This document shows, piece after piece, positions 6,031-64,000 of a stretch of DNA of 64,000 nt. The position numbers and the translations under genes were made by a program. Positions within the stretch are counted from its first letter, which is position 1. Each line of letters starts with the position of its first letter. Below the pieces are notes generated by a model. The model was not told where the DNA came from. It saw only the letters and a list, made by a program, of their open reading frames with translations, and did no database searches. The stretch lies in sequence record LC788708.1; one strand, 5' to 3'. Origin of the DNA: Escherichia coli phage AZ21.

Positions 6031-6532
6031 AGAACTGGATAACTGATGCTTTTAACGTAAAAGCTTCCGAGGTTAGTTGCGCACTGCCTAAACCACGCGG
6101 TAGTTGGTTCCAGACTAACCAACCAGTCTGCTGAATAGTTTTATTACGATTTAACTATGTCCAGGCTAAAGAAGAACTTTAGAAGGTATTCTAGGATAGT
6201 GAAGTTCTTTCTCCACATCGGAGTAGTTTTTCAAGCTATCCACAAAGTGGGAAATGCTGACATGAGAGATGTCACTAATGGTGCACAATAGCACAGGTAA
6301 TTCGCGATAATTCCTGTTGAGTAGCAGCAAAAGGCGGGAAGTCATGACCCCAAGCCTAACCGAGTCCTCAATATACCGCAGGGCATAACCACTAAGTCAC
6401 CCTGACTTAAACTGGAAAATAATAGACGTTACTGTATTTTGTCTTGAAATACTTAATGAGTGAGACTTATGACTCTCCCGGTATCGTCTGTATTTTTAAG
6501 AGTTTTTACGAGAGTTCTTAAAAATACTTAAA

Positions 6533-6607
6533 CGGGGTGTAGTCTAAGGGAGAGGCAGGAGTCTTCTAAATTCCTTTATGCAGGTTCGAATCCTGTCACC
6601 TCGGCCA
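6533..6607 (+). tRNA. tRNA-Arg (anticodon UCU)
   Basis: Acceptor CGGGGTG/CACCTCG, D-stem GTCT/AGGC, anticodon stem GGAGT/ATTCC with loop CTTCTAA, T-arm GCAGG-TTCGAAT-CCTGT, encoded CCA. Confidence 0.75.
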
Positions 6608-6641
6608 ATTTTATTAACTGTAACTAAAACAAAGGAAACAT

Positions 6642-7589
6642 ATGTTTAATACTAAAAATATGAAAGAATTGACTTCTGAGCAGAAAGTAATTCGTACTAT
6701 TAAACGTTGGGGTATTGGTGCTGTAGTTGGTTTAGCAGGTTTAATCCTAGCTTTTAATTCGTATACCATTGTTTCTGATGGTACGGTTAAAACCCAAACA
6801 TTCCTGGGTAAAGTAGACCCTAATCCAGTATTACCTGGTTTCCATCTTGTAAACCCGTTTGCATCTTTCGATACTTTTAGTACGAAAGATATTTCTATGA
6901 AACTGGATAAACTTCAGGTTCCTAGCCAGGATAAGTTTAAGTCTACAGTTGACATTACCGTTATGTTGCAGTTTGATGGTGCTAAAGCTCCTATTAACCG
7001 TGTTAACGCAGGTACTCAGGATCAAGCTCTGAACAAGTACGTTGAAGAGAAGATGCTGTCTACGATTCGTGAGTTTGGTAAGTCTGTACCAAAAGCACAA
7101 GATCTGTTCGACGCTAAGATTCAGGCTCAACTGCAAACCGCTATTCAGCAAGAAGTAGAAGAGTATGCGCGTCCTTATGGCTACACCGTTAAGCAAGTAT
7201 TCCTTCAGGATATTACTCTGCCACCGGTAATCATGGAACAGGTACAAAACACCAAAGTTCGTGAAGAACAAGTTAACGCTGCAAAAGCTGAACTAGCTCG
7301 TGTTGAACAAGAAGCACAGCAGAAAGTTAAGCAAGCTGAGGCTGATCGTTCTGCTCGTGAAAATATGGCAGTAGCTAACGAACGTGACGCAGATGCTAAA
7401 CTGTATGCGGCTAAGAAAGAAGCTGAAGCTAACACCGCTCTGCAGCGTACCATCACTCCAGAGATGATTCGCTGGAAACAGCTGGAAGTTGATATGAAAC
7501 GCGCTGAAAAATATCAGGGTGGCGTTCCTCAGACTGTTGTAGGTACTGGTTATGATGGCCAGATGATTATGGATATGCGTAATAAGTAA
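6642..7589 (+). CDS. SPFH/band-7 (prohibitin/HflC-like) membrane protein
   Basis: 315 aa; N-terminal TM helix then TQTFLGKV...PGFHLVNPF...TVDITVM SPFH-like core and long Ala/Glu/Lys coiled coil; followed by strong terminator. Confidence 0.65.
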   Translation: MFNTKNMKELTSEQKVIRTIKRWGIGAVVGLAGLILAFNSYTIVSDGTVKTQTFLGKVDPNPVLPGFHLVNPFASFDTFSTKDISMKLDKLQVPSQDKFKSTVDITVMLQFDGAKAPINRVNAGTQDQALNKYVEEKMLSTIREFGKSVPKAQDLFDAKIQAQLQTAIQQEVEEYARPYGYTVKQVFLQDITLPPVIMEQVQNTKVREEQVNAAKAELARVEQEAQQKVKQAEADRSARENMAVANERDADAKLYAAKKEAEANTALQRTITPEMIRWKQLEVDMKRAEKYQGGVPQTVVGTGYDGQMIMDMRNK

Positions 7590-27903: not shown

Positions 27904-28641
27904 TCGGATTCGCACATGCTCTAGGGCAGTTTTTCATCTACTATAAATATCCTAGGCCGGTTTTCCTATACAGGGCGGTTATGGGGAGGGCGGTTATTTC
28001 TAGACAATAAAATTTACTCTTGTCAGTCCAGAAATTACTGTCGGATTTGCACATTGTGTTTCTAGAAATTTATGGTCGGATTTGCACAATTGCCTAAGTT
28101 TTTAGGAACATATAATCTCCTGAAAATGGCAGCATTATTTCGGGCCGAAGGCCCATGATTGCCTGAGTTTTTTTAGAGACACAGAAATTTTCACTTGTCA
28201 AGCTATTTTGCCCCATTTTGCTAATAAAATTTTACTTTATCTCCCCTAATCTCAAATTAACCCAAATCTTCTCAACTCTTCTCCAAAATCCCCGCAAATC
28301 AGGTGCTCCGCACCAAACATGCGCCCCTCCCGTAGTTCCCCCAAGTTTCTCTCGATCTCTCAACTTCTCCCCAAACTCATACAATCACACACCCTCCAAT
28401 CGAAGTCACAAAAATCTTGTCGGATTCGCACAAATAAACCCATGTCGGATTTGCACATATTCTAGTTAATTCCACAGGATTGATGCGCAGCATCGGATTG
28501 CTGGAGTTTTTGGGAGAATTCATTGTCGGATTCGCACACTATAAAAATTTTTCGGGTCGGATTTGCACACTACCAAAAATTGTCGGATTCGCACATACAC
28601 GCCCACGCGTAATCCATGGGGGCAAATGTCGGATTTGCACA
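27904..28641 (+). repeat. array of 9 direct copies of GTCGGAT(T/C)(T/C)GCACA
   Basis: Copies at about 27904, 28040, 28075, 28419, 28444, 28525, 28557, 28582, 28628, same orientation, irregular spacing, non-coding. Confidence 0.8.
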
Positions 28642-31624: not shown

Positions 31625-31688
31625 AATTAGTCTCCTATTAATTAACAAGGAAATAGTAAAGCGGGGAAATAATCCCCGCTAGATATTA

Positions 31689-31922
31689 TTACTCGTTTTC
31701 GGTGTTAGTGGTAAAAGTAGAGATATCGATACCTTTTACCATTTCATCGATCATCTCAGCGATGTTAAAACTTTGCACCATTTCTAACATTGCCGCTTCC
31801 ATAGCCGCCCCTGCTACCGCTTTCGCTTTCTGATTAGTCGGGGCGTACTGGTCAACCGCTACACTCAGCAGGTTAGCGATCACTACACGACCAATCGGCG
31901 TATCAATATAGCCTTTGATCAT
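31689..31922 (-). CDS. hypothetical protein, possibly C-terminal part of a frameshifted gene
   Basis: 77 aa ORF overlapping end of 31903-32694 by 20 nt; reachable by +1 shift at an A7 run. Confidence 0.4.
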   Translation of the reverse strand: MIKGYIDTPIGRVVIANLLSVAVDQYAPTNQKAKAVAGAAMEAAMLEMVQSFNIAEMIDEMVKGIDISTFTTNTENE

Positions 31923-32694
31923 AAACGGTGCTTTTTTTAGCCGCTACTTTCGTGATTTGAGTTAGTGCAATTTTACCAGCTTCCAGTTTTGCAGCGTTTA
32001 CAACAGCGGATTTATTAGCGGCAACGATATTAGCGATCTTGGTCATGGTATTTTTTCCTTTGTTTTCAGTAGTTTGAGTATTAACGCTTTGAGTGTTAGA
32101 GCTTACAACCTGTTTTTCAATATTGTCAACTGGTTTTAGTGTAAATCCAGCATTTGCAACGTTTGATTCATTCCCATACTCTAAATAATCACTAGGGATC
32201 AACATGTTGCCACTAGCGCGTTCAAAACATAACACGCCAGTTGTAGAAATTACATTACTATCAGCACTTTTGTAATTAGCTGATAGTTCACGCCAAATGC
32301 TAGTTAATAACGATCCGACACTATCAGTCCTGATATTACTTACTTTTGTTGCTGTTACTTGCTCTTTTTCTTGCACGTTATATAATCGCGCAATGTAACC
32401 ACTATTAGATTCACTATAACCAACAATGATAAAATCAATATCTCTTCCACGTTGATTGCGGAAAATGTGATAATCACGGTTGAAAATTACTAGCGCCCTT
32501 TTCTGGTCTAGTAATTGTGTGAAATCTTCAACTGAATAATGAGTACCCTCATCGTCTAAAATTCTATCATGAATCTTTTCGATAATAGTAGCGGTATGCT
32601 GTACGCTTGCCGCGCTACTACCCTCTAACAGATTGCGCAAACTGCCTTTAATAATAGTGGCGTTTGCTGGTACTGCAATTCTTACAGTAGACAT
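31903..32694 (-). CDS. hypothetical protein (first gene of minus-strand operon)
   Basis: 263 aa ORF, Ser/Thr/Asn-rich middle, Ala/Lys-rich C-terminus; ends just after A7 homopolymer. Confidence 0.5.
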   Translation of the reverse strand: MSTVRIAVPANATIIKGSLRNLLEGSSAASVQHTATIIEKIHDRILDDEGTHYSVEDFTQLLDQKRALVIFNRDYHIFRNQRGRDIDFIIVGYSESNSGYIARLYNVQEKEQVTATKVSNIRTDSVGSLLTSIWRELSANYKSADSNVISTTGVLCFERASGNMLIPSDYLEYGNESNVANAGFTLKPVDNIEKQVVSSNTQSVNTQTTENKGKNTMTKIANIVAANKSAVVNAAKLEAGKIALTQITKVAAKKSTVYDQRLY

Positions 32695-32960
32695 TTTATT
32701 TTGTCTCCCTCGTTAATCGGTGAGTGAATGATAAGGGTAATTTTCTAGCATAGGCAAATATTATTTTACTTTTTTATTTTCCTTGCCTAGCGTCTAATTT
32801 TATGCTAACCGCGCAGCGGTGCAATAAAGAGCAAACCACGGCGAAGCCACCAGCCCGACGCATTGAGGCTTTACTTTAATATTACCTTACAGCGTTTAGC
32901 TCGTTAGAATGCGTTTTGGGCCACTTAAAATTGATTGCAGTTGTTAACACTACCTTTCTA

Positions 32961-33799: not shown

Positions 33800-34012
33800 A
33801 TGAAACAAACTTTATTGATCACTGGCAAGCCTATTAAGGCACTAGATAGCAAAACAAAAAATTTGTTGACAGTAGCGCAAAGATCGGTAAAATACCGATT
33901 CACGCAGTACAAGAAAGACCGCCAGCAAGGTTTAGAAATGATCTGGCGAAACATTATGATTGACTTGAAAGAAAATCATAAAAAACTGCAAAAAAATTAT
34001 TTGACAACCTAG
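33800..34012 (+). CDS. hypothetical ORF (doubtful)
   Basis: 70 aa ORF but contains internal TTGACA-17-TAAAAT promoter-like sites; may be non-coding. Confidence 0.2.
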   Translation: MKQTLLITGKPIKALDSKTKNLLTVAQRSVKYRFTQYKKDRQQGLEMIWRNIMIDLKENHKKLQKNYLTT

Positions 34013-63348: not shown

Positions 63349-64000
63349 TGGCAGTAACTACTAAAATTATTGTACAACAAATATTAAATATTGATGATAC
63401 TAAAGCTACTGCTAGTAAGTTTCCTAGATATACAGTAACTCTAGGTAATTCTATTAGCTCTATTACTGCAAGTGAATTAGTATCTTCTATTGAGGCAGCA
63501 GCTAAGTCTGCTGCAGCTGCAAAAGATTCTGAGATAGCTGCTAAGACTTCAGAACTTAATGCTAAGAACTCTGAACAGGAAGCTGCTATTTCTGCTGGAG
63601 CTTCTGAAGCCTCTGCCGCTCAGTCCGCTACATCTGCTACTCAATCTGCTGCATCAGCGGATAGATCTGCAAAATCAGCCGCAGCAGCTAAAGTATCTGA
63701 GACTAATGCAAAAGCTAGTGAAACTAAGGCTAAAACCTCAGAGACTAATGCAAAAGTATCAGAAACCAAGGCAAAGTCTAGTGAAACCAAAGCTAAAGCC
63801 TCCGAAACTAATGTTAAGACTAGCGAAACTAATGCATTAGCAAGTAAAAATGCTGCAGCAGCTTCACAAATAGCAGCAAAAACTTCTGAGACTAATGCTA
63901 AGACTTCTGAAACTAATGCTAAAGCTTCCAAATTAGCGGCAGCTACTTCGGCTACGAATGCTGCTACTAGCGAAACTAATGCATTAGCAAGTAAAAATGC
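63348..64000 (+). CDS. ltf: L-shaped tail fibre protein, N-terminal part (partial at window edge)
   Basis: Open frame from ATG (TAATG overlap) to window end; Ala/Ser-rich with SETNAK/SETKAK repeats. Confidence 0.65.
   Translation, partial: MAVTTKIIVQQILNIDDTKATASKFPRYTVTLGNSISSITASELVSSIEAAAKSAAAAKDSEIAAKTSELNAKNSEQEAAISAGASEASAAQSATSATQSAASADRSAKSAAAAKVSETNAKASETKAKTSETNAKVSETKAKSSETKAKASETNVKTSETNALASKNAAAASQIAAKTSETNAKTSETNAKASKLAAATSATNAATSETNALASKN

What the first reader, a model, noticed from the sequence alone, without database searches (positions are those of the whole stretch)
31903..31925. A7 homopolymer at the junction of two overlapping minus-strand ORFs
The 263-aa ORF (31903-32694) ends 20 nt into the 77-aa ORF (31689-31922). 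Skipping one base at the GCTAAAAAAAGC run puts the reading frame into the downstream ORF, which would give a roughly 335-aa fusion. This is either a homopolymer sequencing error, a pseudogene, or a programmed +1 frameshift producing two isoforms.
Basis: seen in the sequence. Interest (0 to 1): 0.45.

Follow-up and report, generated by a model that had tools for sequence, protein, structure and literature searches.

The report
Frameshift-split phage T5.011 pre-early gene
The two overlapping ORFs are the halves of one well-conserved T5-type phage gene (T5.011, a dispensable, host-toxic pre-early protein) broken by one extra A in a Lys-Lys A-run, an ordinary homopolymer frameshift (real mutation or base-calling error) and not a programmed recoding signal.

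Summary
On the minus strand a 263-aa ORF (31903-32694) and a 77-aa ORF (31689-31922) overlap by 20 nt. An A7 run (31932-31938) lies 9 nt upstream of the second ATG. The window is E. coli phage AZ23 (LC788707, Tequintavirus).

Both ORFs hit one family, Pfam DUF7566 / phrog_4263, as consecutive parts. This is the orthologue of T5 pre-early gene T5.011 (336 aa), which is toxic to E. coli and dispensable for the phage. Deleting one A restores a 334-aa ORF that is 96.7% identical to the intact IME178 protein.

Nearly all relatives carry A6 and a single ORF:
- 34 of the 38 loci whose run could be read, and about 97% of the GenBank records sampled.
- The A7 allele gave no hits in IMG/VR or JGI metagenome contigs.

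No frameshift stimulator is present, so programmed +1 frameshifting is not supported.

The same run is A5 in four unrelated genomes, and nearby short repeats are hit in three others. The gene is therefore broken repeatedly by slip-strand indels.

AZ23 is otherwise free of split genes, and its only other frame-altering homopolymer change is in hdi, which is also toxic. I therefore favour a real mutation (about 0.55) over a sequencing error (about 0.3). Only the reads can decide between them. Interest is low.

The parts
31689..32694 (-). Whole disrupted gene: orthologue of phage T5 pre-early gene T5.011 (DUF7566 / phrog_4263). It is 1006 nt here against 1005 nt in intact relatives.
   Evidence: Pfam PF24450 matches ORF1 at profile positions 1-257 and ORF2 at 260-336. 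phrog_4263 matches at 1-255 and 258-334. Synteny with T5.011 in the T5 first-step-transfer DNA. Deleting one A gives 334 aa with 323/334 identity to the IME178 protein P0004.
31903..32694 (-). ORF1, 263 aa. Residues 1-254 are native T5.011 sequence. The last 9 residues (STVYDQRLY) are out-of-frame tail.
   Evidence: Homologue alignments stop at about residue 255 (97% query coverage in every hit).
31689..31922 (-). ORF2, 77 aa. It equals family residues 258-334 and starts at a Met codon that is internal in intact relatives. No Shine-Dalgarno-like motif lies upstream.
   Evidence: The upstream text AAAAAAAGCACCGTTTATG has no GGAG-type motif (direct reading).
31932..31938 (-). A7 run (Lys-Lys codons plus one extra A), the site of the frameshift. 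It is A6 in relatives.
   Evidence: Alignment with PK7 and phiLLS shows a single-base gap in the run. Run lengths over the 38 readable loci are A6 x34, A5 x3, A7 x1, and a fourth independent A5 genome was read later. The A7 pattern gave 0 hits in IMG/VR and 0 in metagenome contigs.
31660..31680 (-). Intrinsic terminator hairpin plus T-run directly after the ORF2 stop. It ends the single-gene transcription unit.
   Evidence: The position matches the terminator annotated after T5.011 in T5.
32728..32789 (-). Promoter-like hexamer pairs upstream of ORF1. Probably the counterpart of the pre-early promoter annotated upstream of T5.011 (inferred).
   Evidence: Weak consensus matches, no more than the shuffles give. 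A promoter is annotated at the equivalent place in T5.

Best explanation
A conserved Lys-Lys A6 run (GCT AAA AAA GCA) in the AZ23 orthologue of T5 pre-early gene T5.011 carries one extra A. Translation therefore leaves the native frame after residue 254 and stops 9 codons later. The last 77 codons are left as a separate ORF that begins at what is normally an internal Met.

This is a non-programmed slip-strand indel. I think it is most likely a genuine allele of this phage, tolerated (possibly favoured) because T5.011 is dispensable for infection and toxic to the host.

Expected consequence (inferred): a truncated 263-aa product is made. The 77-aa piece is made at most weakly, by reinitiation. 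A few percent or less of full-length protein arises from spontaneous slippage on the A7 run.

Shown here: gene identity, the 1-nt insertion, its rarity, and the absence of recoding signals. Inferred: that the extra A is in the phage DNA rather than only in the assembly, and the expression consequences.

Confidence that it is a non-programmed 1-nt indel of either origin is about 0.9. Confidence that it is a real mutation is about 0.55, which is the figure given below.
For: One gene:
- Both ORFs match one Pfam family and one PHROG family end to end.
- 120 listed homologue clusters are almost all 328-340 aa.
- tblastn finds one uninterrupted piece in 44/46 and 54/55 sampled full-length GenBank records.

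Insertion: A7 against A6 in PK7, phiLLS, T5, IME178 and 29 of the 30 IMG/VR loci; the thirtieth has A5.

Tolerated:
- T5.011 is toxic in E. coli (PMC8201957).
- Genes hegG to 017 can be deleted from T5 (bioRxiv 10.64898/2026.04.02.716235).
- The T5 st0 record calls it an unessential gene in the del1 region.

Real rather than error:
- AZ23 has no other frame-split ORF against PK7 over about 57 kb, whereas IME178 has more than 10.
- The only window-specific A/T-run changes (3 of 56 runs of 6 or more) all lie in the dispensable FST region, at 28168, 31932 and 33990. The two coding ones hit T5.011 and hdi/T5.008, both reported as toxic.
- Independent frame-disrupting indels of the same gene occur in many other assemblies, including read-level Logan contigs and a JGI metagenome contig.
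- The identical 263-aa and 77-aa proteins carry second NCBI accessions, i.e. they are on a second contig.
Against: - No reads and no description of the sequencing platform were available.
- Both coding changes are A6->A7, the kind of call a homopolymer-prone platform makes.
- The A7 alleles of T5.011 and of hdi are each unique to AZ23 in the collections scanned, so no independent lineage confirms them.
- The second NCBI record comes from the same submitter batch and could share a systematic error.
- The argument from where the changes fall is post hoc and rests on 2-3 events.
Confidence: 0.55

Rival explanations
1. Sequencing or assembly artefact. The phage really has A6 and an intact 334-aa gene, and the extra A is a homopolymer over-call in the deposited consensus.
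For: - The difference from all relatives is exactly one base in the longest kind of homopolymer in the genome.
- A second A6->A7 (hdi, 33990-33996) and a T5->T7 (28168-28174) are also unique to this assembly.
- GenBank T5-like records do contain such errors in bulk, for example IME178.
- The C-terminal module that gets cut is the most conserved part of the protein, about 97-100% identical across clades. That argues the gene is normally under selection.
Against: - The assembly is otherwise clean: no other split ORFs against PK7, and every other comparable A/T run of six or more has the same length as in PK7, apart from one T6/T5 difference at 1779 that lacks a second relative.
- Random errors would be expected mostly in the roughly 75% of runs outside the FST region. 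All three lie inside it (14 of 56 runs).
- The same split proteins are on a second NCBI contig.
Confidence: 0.3
2. Functional split or contingency tract. The Lys-Lys A-run (with neighbouring short repeats) acts as a recurrent switch. It converts T5.011 into a truncated or two-piece form. In the A5 alleles the N-fragment and the 77-aa C-fragment would be co-expressed by stop-start coupling (ATGA), and the change would be selected because it modulates toxicity.
For: - At least four unrelated A5 alleles exist (MM-1, INF11, the UViG_2974642025/JGI contig, ERR13964106) plus A7 in AZ23. All leave the same 77-aa ORF.
- A4->A3 in T5 ATCC 11303-B5 and A4->A5 in SRR13759996, 48 nt upstream, do the same.
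- The A5 alleles end in an overlapping ATGA.
- The break falls at a helix-helix junction (residues 254-257) of the predicted helical C-terminal module.
- The AAA AAA codons are unchanged in all loci while flanking wobble positions vary.
Against: - About 97% of genomes keep the intact gene.
- A6 is short for a phase-variable tract.
- In AZ23 the stop lies 20 nt past the ATG with no SD, so coupling would be poor.
- Other disruptions occur elsewhere in the gene: a (TA)n expansion in ERR12257159 and a 298-aa form in vaffelhjerte. That fits plain decay of a dispensable gene.
- My sampling through the 77-aa protein cluster is biased towards breaks just upstream of M258.
Confidence: 0.09
3. Programmed +1 ribosomal frameshift, or programmed transcriptional slippage, at the A7 run. 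It would yield both a 263-aa and a 334-aa isoform.
For: tRNA-Lys can re-pair perfectly after a +1 slip on AAA AAA A, and the shifted frame reproduces the conserved family sequence exactly. A-runs do give low-level spontaneous slippage (general knowledge).
Against: - The need for a shift is not conserved: A6 and in-frame in 34 of 38 readable loci and in about 97% of sampled records, with 0 other A7 alleles.
- Variants in other genomes go the opposite way, A5.
- The 0-frame codon after the run is AGC, neither a stop nor a rare codon, and there is no SD-like sequence upstream.
- Local RNA folding is no better than shuffles, z = -0.39.
- Seven bases is below the run of about 9 typical of efficient RNA polymerase slippage (established knowledge of the mxiE, Thermus dnaX and IS-element cases).
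Confidence: 0.03

Closest known systems
Phage T5 gene T5.011 (YP_006839.1; '37 kD pre-early protein' T5p010 in AY692264; Pfam DUF7566, phrog_4263)
   Same: Same family by HMM: 285 and 146 bits against a cut-off of 27. Same place in the first-step-transfer / terminal-repeat DNA, between the hdi side and the T5.012-017 genes, and the same terminator. The C-terminal 120 aa are nearly identical.
   Different: In AZ23 the reading frame is broken after residue 254 by one extra A. The N-terminal domain is only about 58% identical to that of T5 itself.
Other frameshifted T5.011 alleles: T5 ATCC 11303-B5 AY587007 (ORF011 + ORF012), vB_EcoS_MM-1, Salmonella phage INF11, IMGVR_UViG_2974642025
   Same: Same gene split into an N-fragment of about 245-260 aa plus the same 77-aa ORF, by a 1-nt change in a short A-run within the same 60-nt stretch.
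   Different: Those are deletions: A6->A5, giving an ATGA stop-start overlap, or A4->A3. AZ23 is the only insertion (A7) seen, and its stop lies 20 nt downstream of the ATG.
Programmed +1 frameshift sites (E. coli prfB type) and transcriptional-slippage genes (Thermus dnaX, Shigella mxiE, IS elements)
   Same: A slippery run on which the P-site tRNA, or the nascent RNA, can re-pair one base along.
   Different: The shift is not conserved. There is no stop or rare codon in the A site, no upstream SD and no structured RNA, and the run is shorter than in efficient slippage sites.

Membership tests
DUF7566 / T5.011 pre-early protein family | Pfam PF24450 (or phrog_4263) match above the curated cut-off | tested here: met
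   ORF1 scores 285.4 bits and ORF2 146.1 bits against a cut-off of 27. They cover profile positions 1-257 and 260-336. phrog_4263 gives E = 3.5e-99 and 2e-50.
DUF7566 / T5.011 pre-early protein family | Location in the first-step-transfer (terminal-repeat) DNA, with A1, A2 and hdi on one side and T5.012-017 on the other | tested here: met
   The gene order in AZ23, PK7 and IME178 matches T5 NC_005859.
DUF7566 / T5.011 pre-early protein family | Single uninterrupted ORF of about 325-340 aa | tested here: not met
   Split into 263 + 77 aa by the A7 run. Intact in 34 of 38 readable loci and in 44/46 and 54/55 sampled records.
Programmed +1 ribosomal frameshifting | The frameshift requirement is conserved among orthologues | tested here: not met
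   Relatives have A6 and are in frame. The A7 pattern gave 0 hits in IMG/VR and in metagenome contigs.
Programmed +1 ribosomal frameshifting | A slippery P-site codon that can re-pair in the +1 frame | tested here: met
   On AAA AAA A, tRNA-Lys re-pairs with AAA after a +1 slip (direct reading).
Programmed +1 ribosomal frameshifting | A slow 0-frame A-site codon (stop or rare) and/or an upstream SD-like stimulator | tested here: not met
   The next codon is AGC. The upstream text CACGAAAGTAGCGGCT has no GGAGG-like motif.
Programmed +1 ribosomal frameshifting | A stimulatory RNA structure near the site | tested here: not met
   A 141-nt fold gives -31 kcal/mol against shuffles at -29.8 +/- 3.1, z = -0.39.
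Programmed transcriptional slippage | A long A/T run (typically 9 or more), conserved among orthologues | tested here: not met
   The run is 7 here and 6 in relatives. The length threshold comes from established knowledge, not from a test here.
Phase-variable (contingency) simple-sequence tract | Tract-length polymorphism that switches the frame on and off among related genomes | tested here: inconclusive
   A5, A6 and A7 all occur, in unrelated lineages. About 97% are A6, and no closely related on/off pairs were seen.
Phase-variable (contingency) simple-sequence tract | Tract-length heterogeneity within a population | not testable with these tools
   Needs the reads of AZ23 lysates.

The most novel reading that the evidence does not exclude
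The Lys-Lys A-run just upstream of Met258 (with the A4 run 48 nt before it) is a recurrent, selected switch. It detaches or removes the ultra-conserved 77-aa C-terminal piece of the toxic pre-early protein T5.011. In the A5 alleles this would give a translationally coupled two-piece protein. T5-like phages would thereby tune host toxicity through homopolymer length.
Probability: 0.08. Interest if true: 0.45.

Novelty: already known. Interest (0 to 1): 0.14.

Why it matters
Mainly for annotation. The two 'hypothetical proteins' AZ23E_1130 and AZ23E_1120 should be read as one frameshifted T5.011 orthologue, not as two genes or a recoding event.

A small biological point follows. T5.011 is a conserved but dispensable and host-toxic pre-early gene of unknown function. 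In public T5-like genomes, including one of the three T5 reference sequences, it is repeatedly found broken at the same short A-runs.

If these breaks are real, natural truncation alleles already exist that separate the N-terminal alpha/beta domain from the conserved C-terminal helical module. They could be used to map which part is toxic.

Tried and rejected
1. Counting A7 alleles in GenBank with a 41-nt megablast query. It failed even to find AZ23 itself, probably because the low-complexity filter removed the seed, so the 'no match' is invalid. The A6 control worked.
2. Exact look-up of the 263-aa and 77-aa proteins in the contig index. Nothing was on record, although the cluster table does hold them.
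3. Finding the AZ23 genome paper or sequencing platform. Searches for AZ23, the LC7887xx accessions and the likely source laboratory gave nothing usable.
4. LC788708, the presumed sibling record, is not in the collections.
5. The search for homologous proteins with the 77-aa ORF returned only 2 clusters, a limitation of the word index for short queries. The cluster listing was more informative.
6. Function of the protein. The AlphaFold2 model has a confident N-domain but a mean pLDDT of only 71, and Foldseek against the PDB gave no hit below E = 0.3. The widespread name 'DNA N-6-adenine methyltransferase' has no Pfam support.
7. A systematic homopolymer-error signature across the window was looked for and not found, apart from the three runs of 7.

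Full report
**What is there.** On the minus strand, the ORF listing gives a 263-aa ORF at 31903-32694 and a 77-aa ORF at 31689-31922. They overlap by 20 nt. The sequence reads ...GTA GCG GCT AAA AAA AGC ACC GTT TAT GAT CAA AGG CTA TAT TGA, with the second ORF starting at the ATG inside T-ATG-AT. The A7 run is at 31932-31938, 9 nt upstream of that ATG. It therefore sits just outside the coordinates given, which cover only the overlap. Removing one A yields a 334-aa ORF. The observation and its arithmetic are correct.

**Where it comes from.** The window is 100% identical to Escherichia coli phage AZ23, LC788707.1, a Tequintavirus from Tokyo sewage. In that record the two ORFs are annotated as separate hypothetical proteins, AZ23E_1130 and AZ23E_1120.

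**What the two ORFs are.**
- Both match a single Pfam family, DUF7566 (PF24450, 336 positions). ORF1 covers positions 1-257 (285 bits) and ORF2 covers 260-336 (146 bits), against a cut-off of 27.
- PHROG phrog_4263 gives the same picture, 1-255 and 258-334 of 334.
- In T5 (NC_005859) the orthologue is T5.011, a 336-aa pre-early gene in the left terminal repeat / first-step-transfer DNA. It has its own promoter and terminator.
- The terminator hairpin is present in the window at 31660-31680.
- The T5 st0 record describes the product as a '37 kD pre-early protein; unessential gene located in del1 region'.
- T5.011 is one of three pre-early genes toxic to E. coli on induction (PMC8201957).
- It lies in the hegG-017 block that can be deleted from T5 with only a modest fitness cost (bioRxiv 10.64898/2026.04.02.716235).

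**What relatives look like.**
- Aligned with PK7 and phiLLS, the only length difference at the junction is one base in the run: A7 in the window, A6 in both relatives. Their genes are single 334-aa CDSs.
- Of 30 IMG/VR loci encoding a relative, 29 have A6 and an uninterrupted ORF of 324-335 aa.
- Over all 38 fetched loci in which the run could be read, the lengths are A6 x34, A5 x3 and A7 x1, the window itself.
- The 120 best homologue clusters are 328-340 aa with four exceptions. Every alignment to ORF1 stops at about residue 255, where the out-of-frame tail STVYDQRLY begins.
- Two 'spread' tblastn samples of GenBank phages found one uninterrupted piece in 44/46 and 54/55 full-length records.
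- A degenerate A7 pattern has no match in IMG/VR or in JGI metagenome contigs. The loci show that the A6 form is present in IMG/VR.
- The repaired AZ23 protein is 323/334 identical to the intact IME178 protein.

**Is it programmed?** The features that define recoding sites were tested and mostly fail.
- The need to shift is not conserved.
- Variants elsewhere go the other way. The run is A5 in vB_EcoS_MM-1, Salmonella phage INF11, IMGVR_UViG_2974642025 (100% identical over 3.2 kb to a JGI metagenome contig) and a Logan contig from ERR13964106. These four differ from one another by about 10% or more in the flanks.
- The 0-frame codon after the run is AGC, neither a stop nor a rare codon, and no SD-like motif lies upstream.
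- The surrounding RNA folds no better than shuffles, z = -0.39.
- Seven A's is below the length at which RNA polymerase slips efficiently (established knowledge).
- The gene is pre-early, so it is translated before the phage's own tRNA genes enter the cell (inference from the two-step transfer described).
- Some spontaneous slippage on A7 will restore a little full-length protein. That is leakiness and not a mechanism.

**Real mutation or artefact?** No reads or platform information could be found, so this cannot be settled here. The indirect evidence leans towards a real allele.
- The assembly is clean. No window ORF is frame-split relative to PK7, and the only PK7 gene split in the window is T5.011. 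The related record IME178, by contrast, has more than ten split genes.
- Of the 56 A/T runs of six or more in the window, only three differ from both relatives, or from the only relative in which the run could be read. All three are the window's only runs of seven: 28168-28174 (non-coding), 31932-31938 (T5.011) and 33990-33996.
- The last of these lies in the hdi/T5.008 orthologue. It changes the C-terminus from ...KKLQKIV* to ...KKLQKNYLTT*.
- All three lie in the dispensable first-step-transfer region, which holds 14 of the 56 runs. The two coding hits are in two of the three genes first reported as toxic. Random base-calling errors should mostly fall elsewhere. Mutations filtered by selection would fall exactly there. 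This argument is post hoc and rests on few events.
- The same gene is frame-disrupted in many independent assemblies. Besides the A5 alleles these are A4->A3 in T5 ATCC 11303-B5, AY587007 (its ORF011 + ORF012), A4->A5 in a Logan contig from SRR13759996 and a (TA)n expansion in ERR12257159.
- The identical 263-aa and 77-aa proteins carry a second pair of NCBI accessions on a second contig. The presumed record, LC788708, is not in the collections.
- Against a real allele: both coding changes are A6->A7. Both A7 alleles are unique to AZ23 (with the A6 control). The segment that is cut is the most conserved part of the protein.
- My estimates are: real slip-strand mutation 0.55, artefact 0.30, functional split or contingency tract 0.09, programmed recoding 0.03.

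**The protein.** An AlphaFold2 model built on 30 homologues has mean pLDDT 71.
- It has a confident N-terminal alpha/beta domain (residues 1-189, pLDDT 75-95).
- A disordered Asn/Thr/Gln-rich linker follows (residues 190-236).
- The C-terminal part is helical and of moderate confidence.
- The frameshift falls at the helix break around residues 254-257 (K-A-P-F).
- Foldseek against the PDB finds nothing below E = 0.3.
- The C-terminal ~120 residues are about 97-100% identical even between clades whose N-domains are only about 48% identical. They are also the only part recognisable in Klebsiella, Serratia, Proteus and Pectobacterium T5-like phages. The split therefore cuts a conserved module and not a natural domain boundary, which makes loss or change of function likely (inference).

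**Verdict.** The two ORFs are an ordinary homopolymer frameshift in a known, dispensable phage gene, so they should be annotated as one disrupted T5.011 orthologue. The only mildly interesting residue is that this gene is broken again and again at the same short A-runs across T5-like genomes. That is compatible with plain decay of a toxic accessory gene. Less likely, it reflects a selected on/off or split-gene switch.

Noticed in passing
window 33990-33996 (+), in ORF 33800-34012: A second AZ23-specific A6->A7 lies in the orthologue of hdi/T5.008 (host division inhibitor, also toxic). The C-terminus ...KKLQKIV* of T5, PK7 and phiLLS becomes ...KKLQKNYLTT*. The A7 allele has 0 hits in IMG/VR against 15 for A6.
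   Followed up: partly
window 28168-28174: This is the third and last run of seven in the window (T7). It is non-coding and lies near the injection-stop-signal end of the terminal repeat. Relatives have T5. Overall only 3 A7/T7 runs occur in 64 kb, against 46 +/- 9.5 expected from shuffles, a strong avoidance of long A/T runs.
   Followed up: partly
L061 (T5 ATCC 11303-B5, AY587007) 6417-7426; L039; L042; L043; L032 and L063; L064; L062: T5.011 orthologues are frame-disrupted in many independent assemblies at short repeats. A6->A5 occurs in four unrelated genomes, where the stop overlaps the start as ATGA. There is also A4->A3 in one of the three T5 reference sequences, A4->A5, and a (TA)n expansion. 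Salmonella phage vaffelhjerte has a 298-aa form.
   Followed up: partly
Protein clusters (BEU76027.1/BEU76170.1 and BEU76026.1/BEU76169.1): The AZ23 263-aa and 77-aa proteins each have a second NCBI accession on a second contig. It is probably a sibling phage from the same submission (LC788708?), which is not in the searchable collections.
   Followed up: partly
DUF7566 alignment A2/A3 (window 31689-32694): The family is mosaic. The N-terminal domain is 48-96% identical between clades, but the last ~120 aa are nearly invariant. A minority of members carry an alternative C-terminal allele (…AAKALPSGMAGMFAKQYLDTPVGR…) that lacks the Lys-Lys A-run. Klebsiella, Serratia, Proteus and Pectobacterium phages share only the C-terminal module.
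   Followed up: partly
L037/L038 (Escherichia phage IME178, MZ398246): Relative to the window this record has more than ten frame-split genes (tail proteins, phosphatase, holin region, hdi), several at A/T runs. It looks like an error-rich assembly and should be treated with caution as a reference.
   Followed up: no
Annotations of orthologues (e.g. phiLLS lls_128, STG2, many UniRef names): The product name 'DNA N-6-adenine methyltransferase' is widely propagated for this family. No methyltransferase domain is detected by Pfam, and there is no structural match in the PDB. It is probably an annotation error.
   Followed up: partly
window 63929-64000 versus LC788707 coordinates: With the constant offset of 40147, the window would end at record position 104147, 72 nt beyond the 104075-bp record. 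The match is reported in two pieces, so the window seems to run across the record's end or to come from a differently permuted copy.
   Followed up: no
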